Below are positions 34,014-56,644 of a DNA stretch of 64,000 nt, piece after piece. The DNA is taken from NCBI RefSeq assembly GCF_048403405.1, contig NZ_CP183129.1; one strand, 5' to 3'. Origin of the DNA: Escherichia coli. Its GTDB lineage: Bacteria > Pseudomonadota > Gammaproteobacteria > Enterobacterales > Enterobacteriaceae. Every line of letters begins with the position of its first letter. Positions within the stretch are counted from its first letter, which is position 1. The translations under genes were made by a program, and so were the position numbers. The notes under the pieces are model-generated. The model did no database searches, was not told the origin of the DNA, and worked only from the letters and a program-made list of their open reading frames with translations.

Positions 34014-34223
34014 CGCCTGTCATGATTTGTACTCACTTATTTCCCGACTGACAATTTACATAGCCAAAACGCTATCAAATCTGACAGTCTGCTTTGAGCG
34101 AGGAGCGGAAGTTAAGGGGCGGTTTAGTATCTAACATGATCTATATGAAATAGTGATTCTTGGCGTATTGCTAATACAACCCCGATTTGATGTAACTCTT
34201 GTCCACTTTCATCTAACTTCCTC

Positions 34224-34353: not shown

Positions 34354-35460
34354 ATGTCTAAAACACGCGATGATTTCAGCTCAAAAACTGTAAGAGCTCT
34401 AGCACTACGGGCTGGTTATAGGTGCTCATTCCCCGGTTGTAATCAGCTTACAGTTGGCCCCAGTGATGAATCCTTAACATCTATCACAAATATTGGGGTA
34501 GCTGCGCACATTCATGCCGCAGCTCCTGGGCCATTAGCAAGACGATATGATCCTAATCAAACACCAGATGAAAGGAAAGATATAAATAATGGCATCTGGA
34601 TGTGTGTTAATCACAGCGTTGAAATTGATAGAGATGAAATTAGATATACAGCAGAAATTCTTAAAGAAATGAAGAAAGCCCACGAAGAAGAGATTAAAAA
34701 AGAGGTGAGCAATGGTTCTTCATCAACCAAACATAATGATTTCATTGCAATAGGTATAGACATTATCGTTTTCGGAGAGCTTACCGGAATCTCAACCAAT
34801 GAGTGGACTATAAAATTTGCAAACTTCTTTACTGGCGATTTATCTAAGTTAATATCTTTCAACGAAAGATTCCACTCCATCCCTACCGAAGAAAAATTTA
34901 TTCTAGTTAATCAACTTGGTGAGGGGCGTTTGTTATCAGCACCAATAAAATTAAATAAATTACCAGATAGCTATGAAGTAATCGTCCCTGTTGAAATAGA
35001 CACTCCGCGCATCAATTGCAATAGCCTCCCAATGGATTTAGATATTTTCACGACAGGCGATTTATTTGTAAATAGTTCTGGTGATATAGCTACGATATCG
35101 GGGTTTGAAGCTTTACCACAAAAAATATATACTTCCCTTTCCACCATTAGAGGTGAGATTTATTCCCATCCAACATTGGGTTCCAGAATAAGACAGTTCT
35201 TCCATGACTTTGAAGGAACAATGTGGCTAGACAAATTAGTTAAATTAGAAGTTATACGCTTATCTTGTATACCAATTTTTGATTCAATCACAAAAAACAA
35301 ATACACTCCATTACATTGTGTAAAAAATGTCAAAAATATTCGGGTGATACCAACTGAATATAAAGATAGCAAATTACCTATTGAGTTCACCCTTGATATT
35401 GAAGGTTTCGGCATCTGGTCCAAAGAAATAAGTGTTTTCTCACCTAAATACGATGAATAA
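34354..35460 (+). CDS. Cargo protein: N-terminal HNH-type nuclease motif fused to a gpW/gp25-like C-terminal region
   Basis: ORF 34318..35460 was trimmed to ATG 34354 (MSKTRDDF, AAAGG 9 nt upstream; 368 aa). The HNH-like pattern is C-x4-C (CSFPGC) ... GVAAHIHAA ... NGIWMCVNHSVEIDRD. The C-terminal FEALPQKIYTSLSTIRGEIYSHPTLGSRIRQFFHD aligns by eye with this phage's own gpW LEHISQSIGDILRTPVGSRVMRRDYGSLLASMID. The gene is AT-rich and antisense to the flanking late genes. Confidence 0.6.
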   Translation: MSKTRDDFSSKTVRALALRAGYRCSFPGCNQLTVGPSDESLTSITNIGVAAHIHAAAPGPLARRYDPNQTPDERKDINNGIWMCVNHSVEIDRDEIRYTAEILKEMKKAHEEEIKKEVSNGSSSTKHNDFIAIGIDIIVFGELTGISTNEWTIKFANFFTGDLSKLISFNERFHSIPTEEKFILVNQLGEGRLLSAPIKLNKLPDSYEVIVPVEIDTPRINCNSLPMDLDIFTTGDLFVNSSGDIATISGFEALPQKIYTSLSTIRGEIYSHPTLGSRIRQFFHDFEGTMWLDKLVKLEVIRLSCIPIFDSITKNKYTPLHCVKNVKNIRVIPTEYKDSKLPIEFTLDIEGFGIWSKEISVFSPKYDE

Positions 35461-35929
35461 AATTGAAGTTCTTGAACCGCTATATTTGGCTCCGGTATTT
35501 ACTCCGTGAGTGGTATCCTAGGGCCCTGTGCGGAGGATTTCATTGTAATGCTCATACGCTGTAGCCAGGTTCATGTTTCTTCAGCAAGGCCATTTGGGCT
35601 AGTGGCCTGCTCCCCATTGCTCCACACAAAAAATTATTCGTTACGTCCGCTCCTGGCACACAGTAGACATCGAGAGACAGCTTCGAGCGATAATCAGAAG
35701 TTCGCAATTGTCATCACCCAAAAGTTGTTTATAACTTGTAGCAAGGTGCATTGTTCAACGTTGAGTTGGTCAAGTTCAGTTAATGATCGGACGATATCTC
35801 ACTCTGCCCAATAGCACATCTGTTTTACGGGAAGTGAGTTTCAACATCACGAGCTTTGTTAGTAAACATCACTTATTTATTAAGAATATGTTTCATAGAA
35901 CAGGGCCGGAGAACTTAATTTCATATTCT

Positions 35930-35954
35930 AAAAAGTGATGCGCAGACATCACTT
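35930..35954 (-). terminator. Rho-independent terminator after the HExxH cargo gene
   Basis: The minus strand reads AAGTGATG-TCTGCG-CATCACTT followed by TTTAG (TTTTT run), 30 nt after the stop at 35984. Confidence 0.65.
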
Positions 35955-35983
35955 TAAACTTTTTAAAGCGCGAAAACCCTACG

Positions 35984-36985
35984 TCAGAATTTGACAGTAG
36001 GAACGGTTGGCCAGATTCTAGCAATAGACTTAAACATAGTCTCCACAATATATTCGAGAACCTCATCATCAGGCTCTTTCATTAATGCTTTTACTTTATT
36101 TATTCTATCCTGAAGTGAAGGGTGAGATTTTGAAAAACCCCAGTTGTTTTTACCTAACATAGTAACGCTGAATAATGCACAGTATATAGAAAGTCTTCTT
36201 TTCCTGCTCACCAACACACGGTCATACATAGACTCTTCACAGTAATTATCTATATGGTCAAGGATGAATTTATTTGCAAACTCATCACATGAGAACTCTT
36301 CATTATGAGCTTGTTCTTGTGTGAATTCATTCATATCATAACTGGTACCTTCCTGCTGATGAATGATATGTCGGACTTCATGCAAAAATGCCCAAGCAGC
36401 AGCAATAATTGCTAATTCAGCTGTTGCTCTTTTAACTGGTTCGATTTTACTGTCAGGCATGGTGCCAGGTTCAGGAATTCCTATTGGTAGTGGTTTTTCA
36501 TCCGGTACCTCATCTTTAGCCGTGTTTTCAAAAGCGCAGATTAACTGTTCAAAGTTTACGAAGTCTGCCGAACTGAAATCAGCAAGTTCTTCCTGTAGCT
36601 CCTCGAGTAAAACATGTAATTCTGACTCGGTTGAGACTAATGATATTTTCTTTGAGTCAAAAAGATCTAAAATAGAATCCCTTTTATCGATAATGTCTTC
36701 AATTTTTTTATTTTGCTCAGTGTTTATTGCTTCGTAGCCCGCCATTGCAGCAAATGTTCCTATCCAGAACGTGCGCAAAACACGATGATTGAAGCGGATA
36801 AATCGATACATCCCCGCATCAAAAATAAATTTACCGTCTGTATGATTATCGCTATGATTTTGGAAGGTCATGTTAAATTTAGACCAGAACTCATCCAGTT
36901 CATTCTGACGCTCTGGAATAGAGGCTAAAAACATTTTTCTTACGCTGTCCTGAACTGTTTTATCTTCATTATGCTCTTCAAACAT
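35984..36985 (-). CDS. Cargo protein with C-terminal ImmA/IrrE-like (HExxH) metallopeptidase motif
   Basis: ORF 35984..37045 (TTG start) was trimmed to ATG 36985 (MFEEHNEDKTV, AGGTGAG 5 nt upstream; 333 aa). The motif FLHEVRHIIHQ followed about 25 residues later by EEFSCDEFANKFIL resembles the HExxH...ExxANxFA signature of COG2856/M78 peptidases. AT-rich. Confidence 0.55.
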   Translation of the reverse strand: MFEEHNEDKTVQDSVRKMFLASIPERQNELDEFWSKFNMTFQNHSDNHTDGKFIFDAGMYRFIRFNHRVLRTFWIGTFAAMAGYEAINTEQNKKIEDIIDKRDSILDLFDSKKISLVSTESELHVLLEELQEELADFSSADFVNFEQLICAFENTAKDEVPDEKPLPIGIPEPGTMPDSKIEPVKRATAELAIIAAAWAFLHEVRHIIHQQEGTSYDMNEFTQEQAHNEEFSCDEFANKFILDHIDNYCEESMYDRVLVSRKRRLSIYCALFSVTMLGKNNWGFSKSHPSLQDRINKVKALMKEPDDEVLEYIVETMFKSIARIWPTVPTVKF

Positions 36986-37248
36986 TTGCTCACCTATATT
37001 GCTGTTAATTTTATCTAATGATGAACCGAGTGGGTTGTTTACCAAGCCTCATGTTACATGTTTTTTGCTTTCCGAATATTTAAGCGTTAGAAGCAAGTAG
37101 GAAAAACGTAGAGCAGTTAACCAAGGCTTTCTACAGGCAGATTAACATAACTTGGTCAGGAATGTCCGCTCTTGGCACATAGCGGACTGTCAGATTAGGC
37201 TTTACTCTGTGCTATAGATATGTAAGCTCACACCAGAGATCATACAAC

Positions 37249-42340: not shown

Positions 42341-43126
42341 ATGGTCAGCTATAATGTGACTAATGTGTGGGGGCTAATCGTTTTTTTCCTTTGTAGCTTT
42401 GCAGTATTAGCATTTTTTAGCTTTGGTAAAAGTAACCTTATGAGGCTTATTGCACATTATTTCAATTTTGGATATTCAGACAAAAAATTAAAAAGACTTG
42501 ACCGCGAGTGGCGCGACATTCAACTATTTAAAATAATTAATGGAATCAATGTATCAGGCATTGAAAATGTGAGAATGATACAGCAGGGACTGATTGATGG
42601 AAAACTAAAAACATCGTATTTTTTCCTTACTCGCATCTGGGGTGACATAACAAAACCACCACACATAATTAAAACAATAATTGTAATTCTGGCCAGTATT
42701 TTTTACATTCTCCTCGCATGTTACATACACAACGAACAATCCGTTATAGTAAGGGATGCCATAGGCATACCATATAAAAACATGATGTACTATGTTTATA
42801 GTGACAAAGTTCTTTTATCCTTCAAAAATAAAGCAGTTGAATTTAATAAAACTTATAGCCTTGCCGATTGCAAGAGACTGCAAAACGTATTTATAAAAGA
42901 CACACTTCCTGAGATCGCCTGCAATAAGCTCTTACAGCTAAACGAGGAGGACTCCGAATGGTTAAGCCAGGAGATTAAAGATAATAACAGTCACAAAAAA
43001 GCATTATTAATACTATCCCTCGTCTATTTCACTTCAGGTCTGGTTATATTCCTGTCATATACAAAATTCTTTTACGCCAATAAGAAGGTTTTAGAATACA
43101 AAGCATCAAATAAAAATCACTCATAA
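42341..43126 (+). CDS. AT-rich cargo membrane protein (3 predicted TM segments) at the P2 orf30 position
   Basis: 261-aa ORF with a strong SD (AAGGAG 6 nt upstream). Hydrophobic segments are VWGLIVFFLCSFAVLAFFSF, IIKTIIVILASIFYILLACYI and ALLILSLVYFTSGLVIFLSY. It is antisense to the flanking late genes S and V. Confidence 0.6.
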   Translation: MVSYNVTNVWGLIVFFLCSFAVLAFFSFGKSNLMRLIAHYFNFGYSDKKLKRLDREWRDIQLFKIINGINVSGIENVRMIQQGLIDGKLKTSYFFLTRIWGDITKPPHIIKTIIVILASIFYILLACYIHNEQSVIVRDAIGIPYKNMMYYVYSDKVLLSFKNKAVEFNKTYSLADCKRLQNVFIKDTLPEIACNKLLQLNEEDSEWLSQEIKDNNSHKKALLILSLVYFTSGLVIFLSYTKFFYANKKVLEYKASNKNHS

Positions 43127-52405: not shown

Positions 52406-53113
52406 CTATATATACTTCCTTTTTACTCTACTTAATTCTATCACTGATGAGGAGTGACAAAATGACAAATTAATAGTATCGATATAATCCAAAATTTGAC
52501 TCTCAACCTCAATAAAAATATTTTTGGGCCCATTACTAATCGATATACCGATTTCATCCAAAACAGCCATCATTTTTCTCTGATGAGTTTTATATTTATA
52601 GTCTTTATTTTCCTCTGTAATATGTGCATTGGCTTCCTCAATAACACATTTGATTCTAGATATTATTTCTAGATAATCTCTCGAAACAGATATATCACCG
52701 CCTTGCGCTTCAGGGAACATAACCCTATACCATCTAAAAAAATTAACTTTCTCTGGATAGATGCTACTTCTTTTAGTTAACTCAGCACTTGCAAATTCTC
52801 TAAACATCGTCAGATGACTAGTGTAATTACTATTATTATTATTTTTAACTCCAGCGTTATATGTCATCAAAGCAATCATAACACCAAAAACGGTAACAAA
52901 AGTTGTTATAAGCCATCCAAACGCCTGAAAATACATTACTATACCAGATGTTTTTTCCGCAAAAAATTTTAAGCACTGGCTATCGAAGCATATATCACGC
53001 TCATATAGCTTTTCATTCTGAATAGTTTCAAAAAGAGAAATTAGCGAAAAAATCAAAAAAAGAGCTGACGACACACCGACAATATATTTGAGAAGTCTAA
53101 TATTTGCATTCAT
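52406..53113 (-). CDS. Two-transmembrane protein translationally coupled to the RT (candidate effector)
   Basis: 235-aa ORF. TM1 is YIVGVSSALFLIFSLISLF and TM2 is IVMYFQAFGWLITTFVTVFGVMIALMTY, followed by a soluble C-terminal ~150 aa. The ATG overlaps the RT stop (ATGA at 53110..53113). AT-rich. Confidence 0.7.
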   Translation of the reverse strand: MNANIRLLKYIVGVSSALFLIFSLISLFETIQNEKLYERDICFDSQCLKFFAEKTSGIVMYFQAFGWLITTFVTVFGVMIALMTYNAGVKNNNNSNYTSHLTMFREFASAELTKRSSIYPEKVNFFRWYRVMFPEAQGGDISVSRDYLEIISRIKCVIEEANAHITEENKDYKYKTHQRKMMAVLDEIGISISNGPKNIFIEVESQILDYIDTINLSFCHSSSVIELSRVKRKYI

Positions 53114-54300
53114 AATGGTTTTAAAGATGCCAATCTAGATTTAAAACACTCCAGTTTTTCTTTAAATGATTCAGAGCGAGTAAGAATAATCATCTTATAT
53201 CTCGTCAAATCATATTTTCTTTTATACCAATGTTTATTTTGATTACCTTTCGAATACGACAACTCTAAACTTTTTATAGCTGCATCAATCACAGCAACAT
53301 CTCTTTTAGATGGCATCGGTTTTATTGCCTGCAACTGTTTCTTGAATGATTCATATTTTTCATGCCCAACACGGCCAAGCTTATTCACTCTCCCCATACA
53401 TCTATTGAATTCTTTTCTGTATGCAACACTTGTTTTTGTGTTATTTTTTGCCGCCAGTAATTTCAAATTATGTATAGATGCCCTGATTCTTTTGACTTCA
53501 TCGGATGGTAGTCGAGGTGAGTCATAGTCAACTCTTAAACCATGTACTTTTATAGGTTCAGATGAACAGTGAAATATTTTTGTTTTGTGCTTATTTATCG
53601 GCAAGTCATGCTCAGAAAGCATCCTCTCTATATGGCTTTGCATTTGAGAAAAATCATAATTACTTATTTTAGATGACACGGTAATATCATCTACCAAACG
53701 CGTATAAACAAGTCCTTTCCTCTGCGCACGTCTTACCACATCCCCTTCAACAGCGAATAAACACAAAGTTGCTATATAGCTTGATGTTAAGGCCCCCTGT
53801 ACGACAAAATCATCCTTAGTACATATATCCACCAAGTATTCAAGAGCCTCATCCTTAATATGCAATATCTCCTCAAACACGCTCCTAACCAGATCTCTAT
53901 GGATATTATCGAAAAAATTACTTATATCCACCTTGAGAACTGTTTTTGCTCCACAATGAGCCTTTGCACATGAAACATAGTCACGTTTGACATTAGAATT
54001 TAAAACATCATTTTTACTGGGAACTGAACCAAACAAAAATGAAGGAAAAACAACCAATTCCTTAAAAATACGTTTATTAATTCTACTCTGTAATAATCTC
54101 ATTTTAGGATGTAGGGAGTAGACAATCCGTTTGCTTCCGTCAATTTTGGGAATTTCTTTTAGAGTATATTTCTCATCTAATGATAATTCTGCAATAGCTT
54201 TAAGCTCTTCAACAGAAATCGATAAAGCCTTTGACAACTTTTCAAGTGTTGTGATAGGAGCATTGGATTTGCTGTATGGTTTAAATTTATCCATAAACAT
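53110..54300 (-). CDS. Retron-like reverse transcriptase
   Basis: RT motifs read from the ORF: KIDGSKRIVYSLHP (motif 1), LLQSRINKRI (2), VLKVDISNFFDNI (A), QGALTSSYIATLCL (B), YTRLVDDITVSS (C, YxDD-type), INKHKTKIF (D/E) and VHGLRV (a retron VTG-like position). The N-terminal LEKLSKALSISVEELKAIA segment is as in retron RTs. The start is ambiguous: ATG 54300 or 54294 is favoured, with ATG 54336 or TTG 54384 possible. Confidence 0.8.
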   Translation of the reverse strand: MFMDKFKPYSKSNAPITTLEKLSKALSISVEELKAIAELSLDEKYTLKEIPKIDGSKRIVYSLHPKMRLLQSRINKRIFKELVVFPSFLFGSVPSKNDVLNSNVKRDYVSCAKAHCGAKTVLKVDISNFFDNIHRDLVRSVFEEILHIKDEALEYLVDICTKDDFVVQGALTSSYIATLCLFAVEGDVVRRAQRKGLVYTRLVDDITVSSKISNYDFSQMQSHIERMLSEHDLPINKHKTKIFHCSSEPIKVHGLRVDYDSPRLPSDEVKRIRASIHNLKLLAAKNNTKTSVAYRKEFNRCMGRVNKLGRVGHEKYESFKKQLQAIKPMPSKRDVAVIDAAIKSLELSYSKGNQNKHWYKRKYDLTRYKMIILTRSESFKEKLECFKSRLASLKPL

Positions 54301-54552
54301 ACCATTCAAATTCAAAGTTACGTACGGTCTTCCCATACTCAAGGGTGGAACAGCAGAGATGCTTACATCAACAATTGTCAGCAACAGCCTCTGCTATCTT
54401 TCGACCGTACGTAATGTCGTCGGCTACGGCACCATCGTAGTTGACGACGGTGGGGCCTCGCTGATAGGTCCATAGTGGACGCTTTTTTGTAAAAGCAAAA
54501 ACTGACAATTTAATGTTGTTGACTGCCGCATACCAAGCGAATCGCTGGTGCG
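54301..54552 (-). ncRNA. Candidate structured non-coding leader (possible retron msr-msd) upstream of the RT
   Basis: About 250 nt lie between a predicted promoter and the RT ATG, with no credible ORF and dense inverted repeats. These are a 12-bp perfect IR 54318..54329/54403..54414, a compound hairpin 54416..54448 (GTCGTC-AA-CTACG-loop-CGTAG-CC-GACGAC), a 9-bp IR 54373..54381/54502..54510 and a 7-bp IR 54352..54358/54389..54395. I could not assign a1/a2 or the branching G uniquely. Confidence 0.35.
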
Positions 54553-54805: not shown

Positions 54806-56644
54806 TTAATCAGCCAGATAAGGTTCAACTTTATCTTCCCATACACTAAATAAAGGCAAACAAGTTAAATAAAAGATAAAGACACAGGCAAAAACTGAAG
54901 TTGGTTGATAACAATGATTTACAGTATACCTGCCATGAGCCATCGTGTGTCTAATTGCAGCACCACCTTTCATATTGAACAATAAATCCATAGTCAATAC
55001 ATGATCACTATCAAAAACACCTTCCATTTCACTCCTATAATTTGCAAGCATTTGAGATAGGCTAGTAGCCTCCTCAAAAAGCGACACATCTATTTTCGTT
55101 GTTTCTTTTCTTCTTAATTCTAAAATCCATCTAATTGAATTCTCCAATTGCGGCAATAACAAATAACAGGCAGACACATAATCTCCCTGCCAAAGCTTAT
55201 AAAACCCCAAAGAAAATATTTCTGCATACCCAGGTGGAACAAATGCACTTTGTTGTGAGATTGGGTCAAATGTATTTTCATTTAATGAATACCTAGCCAA
55301 CACACTTTGCCTAACGACTTCAAACTCACCACAAACATAGACCTGATGCTCAATGTTACTAGTTCTTAAATAATTTGCACAAGCATCATTTAAACTTATA
55401 TCCCCCGCAGGATCCAAAGGTGAACGACTTGCTACAACGCGCCCTCTATCATCATAAACAACCGTTTCACTCATATTAAGAAAAAAATGTTTTTTAGCAT
55501 CGGAACGAGCTCTTTCCATAATTTCACTGGCACTTACAATCTTAAATCTAGCAATTAAAGTTTTAATTACCCTTGAGAAATCCAATTGATTATAAACATG
55601 CTCTTTCTGAGCGATAACATCACTAAGATCCATTGGTATTGCAAAGAAGTGCATTTCATCATTGATTTGATCTCGAATAGAATTCAATTCCTCTCTAATC
55701 TTTTTAATTTCTTCATTCATTCCACCAATTGCTCTAAATTCGCCAAGAGCAACTCTTAACCAATGAGCCTTCAATATTGAAGATGAAGACTGTTCAAATT
55801 GAGCCAATGTTATTTCTGACGCTTTAATTCTGCACCGTCTTCCTTGCTCTTCCATATCGTTTTTAACATATAATTCAGACGCAAAATAAAACAATTTTTT
55901 CACTGCATCAAAATAAGACGCTCCACAATGCTCATCAGCTATCTTTTCTGCATTCTCAGCCAATTGCAAGGGACACAATAAATTATTCTTATAAAGAATT
56001 TCAGAAACTCTTAATACACCGGTGAATATACCAGAGTCTATTAATACATGATATAACCTTAATGTCGAATCAACTATCCCCCCTTGTAGTTGTTTTTTCC
56101 TGCCAATAAGCATGCGCGATATTGCGATACCTCTATCCAAGCAGTCAACAACATCAAAAATATGGATATCACCTGACTCTTGTTTTTCTATTAAAGTATC
56201 GCAAGCATCATTAACCATTAGAGAATATGACTCTATTGCTTTATTGGCAGAGTCTATATCCTTACGGTTATTTATCCATAAAACATCACACACCCTAGAT
56301 ATAATATAAGGATTATCGGAGTTTTCTTTAATACAAGTTAATATTGTTGAAAAACTCTCCTTATAATCTGAAGGCCTATAGCCCCTCTCAGGATAGAGAA
56401 TGATTTTTGGCTCAAAACCGATAATATCACCAGACCTAGAAAATTTAAAATTAAACAACGCACGTAATAAATAGCAAAGCCGCCAAGAACTTACATCGTT
56501 TTTTAGCTTGTAAGATGACAACAACTGAACAAAATAAGACTCCATATCAAAATGAGAATAACTTCTTGGCGATGATAATATACTGGCGTATTCACTTTTT
56601 TTAAAATCATCAACTGAAATAGAAAAAACATCAAACTCGCTCAT
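54806..56644 (-). CDS. 612-aa cargo protein of unknown function with C-terminal R-x4-H (HEPN-like) motif; candidate anti-phage/abortive-infection effector
   Basis: Uninterrupted AT-rich ORF with a strong SD (AAGGTGAGGA immediately upstream of ATG 56644). It is largely helical by composition. I could not find a P-loop, so it is not Old-like. The C-terminus reads YLLLPQLENSIRWILELRR...GGAAIRHTMAHGRY. It occupies the tin/old position between A and cos. Confidence 0.55.
   Translation of the reverse strand: MSEFDVFSISVDDFKKSEYASILSSPRSYSHFDMESYFVQLLSSYKLKNDVSSWRLCYLLRALFNFKFSRSGDIIGFEPKIILYPERGYRPSDYKESFSTILTCIKENSDNPYIISRVCDVLWINNRKDIDSANKAIESYSLMVNDACDTLIEKQESGDIHIFDVVDCLDRGIAISRMLIGRKKQLQGGIVDSTLRLYHVLIDSGIFTGVLRVSEILYKNNLLCPLQLAENAEKIADEHCGASYFDAVKKLFYFASELYVKNDMEEQGRRCRIKASEITLAQFEQSSSSILKAHWLRVALGEFRAIGGMNEEIKKIREELNSIRDQINDEMHFFAIPMDLSDVIAQKEHVYNQLDFSRVIKTLIARFKIVSASEIMERARSDAKKHFFLNMSETVVYDDRGRVVASRSPLDPAGDISLNDACANYLRTSNIEHQVYVCGEFEVVRQSVLARYSLNENTFDPISQQSAFVPPGYAEIFSLGFYKLWQGDYVSACYLLLPQLENSIRWILELRRKETTKIDVSLFEEATSLSQMLANYRSEMEGVFDSDHVLTMDLLFNMKGGAAIRHTMAHGRYTVNHCYQPTSVFACVFIFYLTCLPLFSVWEDKVEPYLAD

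What the first reader, a model, noticed from the sequence alone, without database searches (positions are those of the whole stretch)
35984..36985. Z/fun-position cargo: ImmA/IrrE-like HExxH metallopeptidase with a large unknown N-terminal domain, convergent with the HNH gene
The second gene of the island (333 aa from ATG 36985, good SD AGGTGAG, own terminator at 35930..35954) carries FLHEVRHIIHQ, followed ~25 residues later by EEFSCDEFANKFIL. This matches the HExxH ... E-x-x-A-N-x-F-A layout of COG2856/M78 (ImmA/IrrE) peptidases, which normally cleave a partner repressor or antitoxin. No adjacent Xre-type HTH partner is visible. The N-terminal ~200 residues, including an acidic coiled-coil-like stretch (ESELHVLLEELQEELADF), have no motif I recognise. 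It may act alone, or together with the convergent HNH protein as a two-gene system with independent transcription.
Basis: inference. Interest (0 to 1): 0.6.

Follow-up and report, generated by a model that had tools for sequence, protein, structure and literature searches.

The report
Lit-family suicide protease in P2 prophage
The gene is real, but it is a divergent member of the known Lit family of phage-exclusion zinc proteases rather than an ImmA/IrrE peptidase; it travels as a single-gene defence module, has no link to the neighbouring HNH gene, and databases already label it as Lit family.

Summary
The ORF at 35984..36985 (-), 333 aa, exists exactly as described, including the RBS, the hairpin, FLHEVRHIIHQ and EEFSCDEF. 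It lies in the Z/fun slot of a P2-like prophage, between the tail sheath gene FI and the tail fibre assembly gene G.

The family assignment is wrong. It matches Pfam Peptidase_U49 above the gathering score, the PADLOC Lit model and the NCBIfam Lit model. RefSeq already names it 'phage exclusion protein Lit family protein'. A profile-profile comparison with the canonical K-12 Lit clade gives 99% probability over 246 columns. The 'unknown N-terminal domain' is therefore part of the Lit family fold. Only the acidic helical stretch (residues 91-134) is a clade-specific insertion.

H202, E203, H206, E229/E230 and D234 are invariant across both clades. There was no Peptidase_M78 hit, no HTH partner, and no ImmA/IrrE among the top structural matches. 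The best specific structural matches are M48/M56 zincins.

The HNH neighbour is independent. None of 38 other Lit-like loci carries it, and none of 7 other HNH loci carries a Lit-like gene.

The most likely function is a latent, phage-triggered abortive-infection protease that cleaves a translation factor, EF-Tu by analogy. At 17-23% identity to Lit, neither trigger nor substrate is established.

It is a new, untested member of a known kind. Interest is low to moderate.

The parts
35984..36985 (-). CDS, 333 aa: divergent Lit-family (Peptidase U49) zinc metallopeptidase, identical to RefSeq WP_000461305.1
   Evidence: ORF listing. RefSeq and GenBank annotation. Pfam PF10463 at 27.3 bits against a cutoff of 23.9. 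PADLOC Lit at E 9.4e-10. NCBIfam NF007238 at E 2.7e-22. hhalign against the canonical Lit clade gives 99.0% probability.
36368..36382 (-). Codons for H202-E203-V-R-H206, the catalytic HExxH, equivalent to K-12 Lit H160-E161-x-x-H164
   Evidence: These residues are invariant in 29 sequences, including K-12 Lit. They align with each other in BLASTP and in hhalign.
36284..36301 (-). Codons for E229-E230-F-S-C-D234, equivalent to K-12 Lit E180-E181-x-x-x-D185. Inferred to be the glutamate helix that supplies the third zinc ligand.
   Evidence: E229, E230 and D234 are invariant across both clades. The ligand role is inferred from the gluzincin-type layout and from the M48/M56 structural matches.
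36584..36715 (-). Codons for residues 91-134: an acidic helical insertion found only in the 333-337-aa enterobacterial clade
   Evidence: The stretch is absent from the ~290-aa homologues and from canonical Lit. The AF2 model places it in the long helices 67-110 and 116-135, with pLDDT above 90.
36989..36995 (-). Shine-Dalgarno-like AGGTGAG, 3 nt upstream of the ATG
   Evidence: Read directly from the sequence. The AJ512680 annotators marked the RBS in the same place.
35932..35955 (.). AT-rich 9-bp hairpin 29 nt downstream of the stop codon, a possible terminator
   Evidence: Pattern scan. The number of such sites in the region is not above chance.
37165..37196 (.). Right boundary repeat of the Z region, part of the conserved P2 backbone downstream of gene G
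   Evidence: Inverted repeat I1. The core TCCGCTCYTGGCACAYAG occurs 3 times against 0.17 expected. The flank is conserved in other P2-like phages.
35643..35668 (.). Extra middle copy of the boundary repeat, in the spacer between the HNH gene and the Lit-like gene
   Evidence: It tentatively marks the junction between two separately acquired cassettes. A 55-nt match at 89% identity also occurs in a non-P2 island of E. coli R2.
34078..34109 (.). Left boundary repeat of the Z region, downstream of FI
34354..35460 (+). Neighbouring, independent gene of 368 aa: an N-terminal HNH nuclease fused to a C-terminal GPW/gp25-like (DUF2634) domain. It is not part of the Lit-like module.
   Evidence: PADLOC PDC-M68A at E 9.6e-24, plus HNH effector models. 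Pfam Sheath_initiator and PHROG baseplate families match residues 228-301. It never co-occurs with a Lit-like gene outside this island.

Best explanation
The gene encodes a stand-alone Lit-family (MEROPS U49) zinc metalloprotease, carried as lysogenic-conversion cargo in the Z/fun hotspot of a P2-like prophage.

Shown here:
- It is homologous to the e14 Lit protease over essentially its whole length.
- The HExxH motif and the downstream EE...D helix are invariant.
- The predicted fold is confident, and its closest solved relatives are M48/M56-type zincins.
- It is a single-gene module that moves between prophage hotspots, integrative elements and defence islands without any conserved partner.

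Inferred by analogy with Lit: the protease is made in the lysogen but stays latent. When an unrelated phage infects, a phage protein (for Lit, the Gol segment of the T4 major capsid protein bound to EF-Tu) creates the cleavable substrate. The protease then cuts an essential host translation factor (for Lit, EF-Tu between Gly59 and Ile60). Translation stops, and the infected cell dies or arrests before progeny are released, which protects sibling lysogens.

The clade-specific helical insertion (residues 91-134) and the divergent N-terminal half are the likeliest determinants of a trigger specificity different from that of K-12 Lit.

The convergent HNH-gp25-like gene is a second, independent defence candidate stacked in the same hotspot.
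For: Family membership: Pfam Peptidase_U49 scores above its gathering cutoff. The PADLOC Lit model matches at E 9.4e-10. NCBIfam 'phage exclusion protein Lit' matches at E 2.7e-22 across residues 17-316. RefSeq uses the name 'phage exclusion protein Lit family protein'. All 38 homologue clusters carry PF10463.

Full-length homology: profile-profile comparison with the canonical Lit clade gives 99.0% probability, E 2.6e-18, over 246 columns spanning residues 12-321.

Catalytic residues: H202, E203, H206, Q210, E229, E230, D234, K262, R263, H288, P289 and R294 are invariant, K-12 Lit included.

Stand-alone architecture: of 644 family clusters found by exhaustive profile search, nearly all of the 150 best listed are single-domain proteins of ~285-320 aa or fragments of such.

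No conserved partner: no neighbour family occurs in more than 5 of 38 loci. Contexts are mobile or defence-type. They include RT plus SLFN/AlbA_2, an OLD-like ATPase plus integrase next to smpB, an ICE with ArdC, and the portal-side region of another P2-like prophage.

Independence from HNH: 0 of 38 Lit-like loci carry the HNH gene and 0 of 7 HNH loci carry a Lit-like gene.

Lit mechanism and prior report: the mechanism is taken from the review PMC3014915. Lit has already been reported in a single P2-like prophage (PMC13586616).
Against: Identity to K-12 Lit is only 17% overall, and 23% over the 135-residue catalytic core. The NCBIfam score of 79 bits is far below the equivalog cutoff of 274. 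Functional equivalence in substrate and trigger is therefore not established.

Lit H169, invariant in the canonical clade, is Q211 here. This clade instead has a near-invariant H209.

No member of this clade has been tested. No solved structure exists for the family. Expression in the lysogen has not been shown: the promoter scan found nothing above chance.
Confidence: 0.6

Rival explanations
1. It is an ImmA/IrrE (COG2856, M78) peptidase that cleaves a partner repressor or antitoxin.
For: It has an HExxH motif followed about 25 residues later by an acidic helix, which superficially resembles the M78 layout.
Confidence: 0.03
2. The Lit-like protease and the convergent HNH-gp25-like nuclease form one two-gene defence system.
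For: They are adjacent in the same hotspot and are always found together in E. coli. The whole island occurs in 5 of 5426 complete genomes and in P2-EC46, and neither gene occurs alone in E. coli at megablast sensitivity.
Against: Those six occurrences are 99.8-100% identical, so they represent a single acquisition. Outside this island, 38 Lit-like loci lack the HNH gene and 7 HNH loci lack a Lit-like gene. An 82%-identical HNH homologue lies next to P2 gpA beside a KAP NTPase. The HNH family is much larger, with 276 clusters against 38. The two genes are convergent, separated by 523 bp and by an extra copy of the boundary repeat.
Confidence: 0.06
3. It has the Lit fold but different biochemistry: it senses a different phage protein and cleaves a host or phage protein other than EF-Tu.
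For: It is strongly diverged from Lit at 17-23% identity and scores below the equivalog cutoff. It has a clade-specific 44-residue helical insertion. The position of the conserved His after the HExxH motif is shifted. The family forms a continuum of 644 clusters, which leaves room for several specificities.
Against: The catalytic core and the overall architecture are conserved. Nothing here points to a specific alternative substrate.
Confidence: 0.25
4. It is cargo that benefits the phage by some route other than abortive infection. Examples would be a protease that inactivates a host defence protein, or a virulence or lysogenic-conversion factor.
For: The original depositors called it only a 'putative lysogenic conversion protein'. 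Z/fun cargo was historically thought to affect virulence (bioRxiv 10.1101/2021.01.21.427644).
Against: Homologues sit mostly in chromosomal islands, ICEs and defence-type neighbourhoods rather than in virions or lytic phages. The only hit among 50,697 phage records is P2-EC46 itself. The only characterised relative is an abortive-infection protease.
Confidence: 0.06

Closest known systems
Lit, the cell death peptidase of the E. coli K-12 e14 cryptic prophage (MEROPS U49, Pfam PF10463, NCBIfam NF007238)
   Same: It is homologous over the full length (hhalign 99%). It has the same HExxH and EE...D motifs and the same conserved KR and HP...R positions. It is a stand-alone protein of about 300 aa, and it is carried on a prophage or other mobile element.
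   Different: Identity is only 17-23%. The score is far below the equivalog cutoff. It has a 44-residue acidic helical insertion (residues 91-134). Lit H169 is replaced by Gln, with a His two residues earlier. It sits in the Z/fun slot of a P2-like prophage rather than in e14. Neither its trigger nor its substrate has been tested.
M48/M56 zincins (BepA, HtpX/Ste24-type proteases, BlaR1 sensor protease)
ImmA/IrrE (COG2856, Peptidase_M78)
   Same: It is a zinc-dependent HExxH peptidase found on mobile elements.
P2 Z/fun and other P2 hotspot cargo (the old and tin genes, retrons, PARIS and similar)
   Same: It occupies the variable slot between genes G and FI, bounded by the backbone inverted repeats. 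The AT-rich composition is typical of acquired morons.
   Different: The protein family is different. Lit has been reported as rare in P2-like prophages (PMC13586616).

Membership tests
Lit / Peptidase U49 family | Match to Pfam PF10463 above the gathering score | tested here: met
   27.3 bits against a cutoff of 23.9, E 3.4e-6, residues 185-297. All 38 homologue clusters are pre-annotated with PF10463.
Lit / Peptidase U49 family | Homology over the whole protein, including the N-terminal half, to canonical Lit proteins | tested here: met
   The NCBIfam NF007238 alignment covers residues 17-316. hhalign between the clade profiles gives 99.0% probability, E 2.6e-18, over 246 columns.
Lit / Peptidase U49 family | Conserved catalytic HExxH (Lit H160, E161, H164) | tested here: met
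   H202, E203 and H206 are invariant in 29 aligned sequences, K-12 Lit included.
Lit equivalog (same function as e14 Lit) | NCBIfam NF007238 equivalog score of at least 274 bits | tested here: not met
   79.3 bits. It is a family member, but not demonstrably an equivalog.
Lit equivalog (same function as e14 Lit) | Cleaves EF-Tu between Gly59 and Ile60 | not testable with these tools
   This needs biochemistry. The mechanism is known only for K-12 Lit (PMC3014915).
Lit equivalog (same function as e14 Lit) | Activated by the Gol segment of the T-even major capsid protein bound to EF-Tu | not testable with these tools
   This needs a phage challenge or Gol co-expression.
ImmA/IrrE (COG2856, Peptidase_M78) | Profile match to Peptidase_M78 (PF06114) | tested here: not met
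   Peptidase_U49 was the only Pfam hit at E<=1.
ImmA/IrrE (COG2856, Peptidase_M78) | Adjacent cognate Xre/HTH repressor or antitoxin gene | tested here: not met
   There is none in the island. No neighbour family is shared by more than 5 of 38 homologous loci.
ImmA/IrrE (COG2856, Peptidase_M78) | Fold similarity to solved IrrE/ImmA structures | tested here: not met
Two-gene HNH + protease system | Conserved co-occurrence of the two genes across lineages | tested here: not met
   The genes co-occur only in this one island lineage. 38 Lit-like loci lack the HNH gene and 7 HNH loci lack a Lit-like gene.

The most novel reading that the evidence does not exclude
This enterobacterial clade of Lit-family proteases carries a unique 44-residue helical insertion and a diverged N-terminal half. 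It may recognise a phage trigger other than the T-even Gol peptide, and possibly cleave a host factor other than EF-Tu. That would make Lit-type 'substrate-assisted' proteolysis a diversified sensing platform rather than a one-off T4/e14 curiosity.
Probability: 0.3. Interest if true: 0.5.

Novelty: new member of a known kind. Interest (0 to 1): 0.25.

Why it matters
It corrects a misassignment: the protein belongs to the Lit/U49 family, not to ImmA/IrrE. It also shows that the Z/fun slot of this P2-like prophage holds two independent defence candidates rather than one two-gene system.

Lit is one of the oldest abortive-infection paradigms, yet only the e14 protein has been studied, and no structure has been solved for the family. 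This divergent, confidently modelled homologue sits on a P2-like prophage found in human-derived E. coli isolates, including a blood isolate (strain 4621). It would be a tractable second example for asking whether EF-Tu cleavage and capsid-peptide sensing hold across the whole family.

The practical value is modest. Databases already label the gene correctly, and a 2026 survey already notes Lit in a P2-like prophage.

Tried and rejected
Structure and sequence searches that gave little:
- Foldseek of the AF2 model against PDB found nothing at E<=0.001.
- Foldseek against BFVD viral structures gave only one weak unnamed hit, S5VY85 (E 7e-3, TM 0.35).
- The afdb50 library was unavailable, so no direct structural comparison with the AlphaFold model of K-12 Lit was possible.
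- PDB sequence searches with the single protein and with the clade profile returned only chance coiled-coil or short matches.
It was redone without that sequence.

Searches for other elements or prior work:
- An Rfam scan of the island found no RNA family.
- The promoter and terminator scans were not above chance.
- A literature search for the accession numbers and for P2-EC46 found nothing. The search for 'Lit-like' or 'Peptidase U49' papers found nothing specific.

Leads followed and dropped:
- A 333-residue gene next to an 82%-identical HNH homologue in L042 looked like a second HNH/Lit pairing. It is a truncated KAP NTPase with no similarity to the Lit-like protein.
- The C-terminal gp25-like domain of the HNH protein has no detectable similarity to the prophage's own gpW.
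- The idea that the middle boundary repeat proves two separate insertions remains tentative. A 55-nt match to that stretch also occurs in a non-P2 island.

Full report
OBSERVATION

It runs 35984..36985 on the minus strand and encodes 333 aa from the ATG at 36985. A longer 353-aa reading from an upstream TTG also exists. AGGTGAG lies 3 nt upstream of the ATG. An AT-rich 9-bp hairpin at 35932..35955 follows the stop codon, but such sites are no more frequent in this region than in shuffled sequence. FLHEVRHIIHQ is residues 200-210, EEFSCDEFANKFIL is residues 229-242, and the acidic stretch ESELHVLLEELQEELADF is residues 120-137.

RefSeq annotates the identical CDS as WP_000461305.1. GenBank AJ512680, the P2-EC46 proviral Z-region, annotates it as ORF1, a 'putative lysogenic conversion protein'.

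The window is 99.99% identical over 48.5 kb to E. coli strain 4621. The gene lies in a P2-like prophage integrated between pflB and pflA. It occupies the variable slot between the tail sheath gene FI and the tail fibre assembly gene G. The island is AT-rich, with GC 0.34-0.39 against 0.50-0.58 in the backbone. The complete island occurs in only 5 of 5426 complete E. coli genomes, at 99.9-100% identity. Among 50,697 phage records it occurs only in P2-EC46.

WHAT IT IS

The protein is not an ImmA/IrrE peptidase. At E<=1 the only Pfam family hit is Peptidase_U49 (PF10463), at 27.3 bits against a gathering score of 23.9. PADLOC gives only 'Lit', at E 9.4e-10. NCBIfam gives NF007238, 'phage exclusion protein Lit', at E 2.7e-22. 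That alignment runs from residue 17 to 316, but its 79 bits fall far below the equivalog cutoff of 274. RefSeq already uses the name 'phage exclusion protein Lit family protein'.

Direct BLASTP against K-12 Lit (b1139, taken) aligns 135 residues around the HExxH at 23% identity. A search of 5.8 billion proteins found 38 clusters, all pre-annotated with PF10463.

I built two alignments: one of this clade (A2, 28 sequences) and one of the canonical K-12 Lit clade (A4, 26 sequences). hhalign between them gives 99.0% probability and E 2.6e-18 over 246 columns, covering residues 12-321 of this protein and 9-265 of Lit.

P24, E25 and W74 are invariant even when K-12 Lit is included. What is truly clade-specific is a 44-residue insertion, residues 91-134. 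It is present only in the 333-337-aa enterobacterial members (Escherichia, Dickeya, Proteus and metagenomic relatives). It is absent from the ~290-aa homologues and from canonical Lit.

CATALYTIC RESIDUES AND FOLD

The following residues are invariant in all 29 aligned sequences, K-12 Lit included: H202, E203, H206, Q210, E229, E230, D234, K262, R263, H288, P289 and R294. They correspond to Lit H160, E161, H164, Q168, E180, E181, D185, K205, R206, H232, P233 and R238.

One difference stands out. Lit H169, invariant in the canonical clade, is Gln211 here, and this clade has a near-invariant His209 instead.

AlphaFold2 run with A2 gives a confident model, with mean pLDDT 92 and pTM 0.91. It shows a small three-stranded sheet (residues 40-66), a long helical hairpin (67-110 and 116-135) that contains the insertion, and a helical catalytic half.

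An exhaustive profile search of 1.84 billion cluster representatives found 644 family clusters at E<=1e-3. Among the 150 best hits listed, scores fall off smoothly and nearly all are stand-alone proteins of 285-320 aa or fragments of such.

ONE SYSTEM OR TWO

The convergent neighbour, 34354..35460 (+), is 368 aa. Its N-terminal HNH nuclease domain matches PADLOC PDC-M68A, SduA-type and CBASS-effector-type HNH models. Its C-terminal region matches GPW/gp25-like sheath-initiator and baseplate-wedge families. RefSeq calls it a DUF2634 or GPW/gp25 family protein.

I tested whether the two genes co-occur:
- A scan of one genome per species found 32 loci with a Lit-like gene, and none has an HNH homologue within 6 kb.
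- The five closest homologues, at 87-55% identity, sit in five different contexts with no HNH gene. P0002 is next to a reverse transcriptase and an SLFN/AlbA_2 protein. P0003 is next to an OLD-like TOPRIM ATPase and an integrase beside smpB. P0004 is in a conjugative element. P0005 is next to an integrase fragment and a Fic gene. P0006 is about 2 kb from the portal gene of another P2-like prophage, and I infer this is its cos-proximal hotspot.
- The HNH family is much larger, with 276 clusters. Seven HNH loci examined lack any Lit-like gene. One of these is an 82%-identical homologue next to P2 gpA, beside a KAP NTPase.
- Pooled tblastn confirms the result: both genes occur together only in L001 and L002, which are this same island.
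- No neighbour ORF family is shared by more than 5 of the 38 Lit-like loci, and those five share a mobile element. The recurring neighbours are integrases, ArdC and AAA_21/SMC-like ATPases.

The Lit-like gene is therefore a single-gene mobile module, and the HNH gene is separate cargo.

One further feature is consistent with two separate acquisitions. The core of the island's boundary repeat, TCCGCTCYTGGCACAYAG, occurs three times against 0.17 expected: at both ends of the island and once in the 523-bp spacer between the two genes. This reading is tentative, because a 55-nt match to the middle copy also occurs in a non-P2 island of another E. coli strain.

HOW IT MOST LIKELY WORKS

The only characterised relative is e14 Lit. 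It is a latent zinc protease that cleaves EF-Tu between Gly59 and Ile60. It does so only when the Gol segment of the T4 major capsid protein binds EF-Tu domains II and III. Cleavage shuts down translation late in infection and excludes the phage (PMC3014915; PMC13581612).

I infer the same logic here. The protease would be expressed from the prophage and stay inactive until an infecting phage supplies a protein that makes a host translation factor cleavable, leading to abortive infection. Family membership, conserved catalytic residues, stand-alone architecture and mobile or defence contexts are shown. The trigger, the substrate and expression in the lysogen are inferred.

At 17-23% identity, with the insertion and the shifted histidine, a different trigger is quite possible and a different substrate cannot be excluded. 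Confidence is about 0.95 for Lit-family membership and about 0.6 for a protease-dependent abortive-infection function acting alone. Within that function, I put EF-Tu as the substrate at about 0.35-0.4.

COMPARISON WITH WHAT IS KNOWN, AND NOVELTY

This is a new, uncharacterised member of a known kind. It is already correctly named in RefSeq, and the PADLOC Lit model detects it. A 2026 survey of P2/P4 defence repertoires states that Lit is rare in prophages and was found in a single P2-like prophage, probably a recent acquisition (PMC13586616).

The contributions here are limited to four points: correcting the family assignment, showing that the N-terminal region is not an unknown domain, delimiting the clade-specific insertion, and rejecting the two-gene hypothesis. 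Interest is low to moderate, at 0.25.

The most novel reading not excluded by the evidence is that this clade has a different trigger or substrate. I give that about 0.3 probability and 0.5 interest if true.

Noticed in passing
window 34354..35460 (+): The neighbouring gene fuses an N-terminal HNH nuclease to a C-terminal GPW/gp25-like baseplate or sheath-initiator domain (DUF2634). The HNH part matches PADLOC PDC-M68A and SduA- and CBASS-effector-type models. The full-length architecture is conserved in at least 276 protein clusters across Proteobacteria, in varied contexts. The tail-protein-like domain on a nuclease suggests a sensor or decoy for phage baseplate components. It shows no similarity to the prophage's own gpW.
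   Followed up: partly
window 34092..34109, 35646..35663, 37165..37182: There are three copies of an 18-26-nt repeat with core TCCGCTCYTGGCACAYAG, against 0.17 expected by chance. Two bound the Z-region island and one lies in the spacer between the two cargo genes. The spacer has higher GC (0.435) than either gene. A 55-nt match to the middle copy is also found downstream of an FRG-domain gene in a non-P2 island of E. coli R2.
   Followed up: partly
window 52406..54384 (-) and 54806..56644 (-): The prophage's other hotspot, between portal gene Q and replication gene A, carries a retron Ec48-type system and a 612-aa DUF7380 protein. The retron consists of a reverse transcriptase ORF at 53110..54384 and a 235-aa effector membrane protein at 52406..53113. 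In strain 4621 the effector is annotated as two CDS. The window has one intact ORF and a length difference from strain 4621 consistent with a 1-bp indel whose position I did not locate.
   Followed up: partly
window 42341..43126 (+): A 261-aa hypothetical protein is encoded on the opposite strand to the surrounding P2 late genes, between baseplate gene V and the virion morphogenesis gene. It may be another moron-type insertion.
   Followed up: no
L042 3..1004 (+), next to the HNH homologue P0114 and P2 gpA: An 82%-identical homologue of the HNH-gp25-like protein lies beside replication gene A of another P2-like phage, paired with a KAP-family P-loop NTPase. It appears to occupy that phage's other hotspot, which would mean the same cargo shuttles between the two P2 hotspots.
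   Followed up: partly
L040 1766..2779, about 2 kb from a P2-like portal gene: A 55%-identical Lit-like homologue (P0006, 337 aa) lies about 2 kb from the portal gene of a different P2-like prophage, apparently in its cos-proximal hotspot. Lit-family cargo would then occur in both P2 hotspots.
   Followed up: partly
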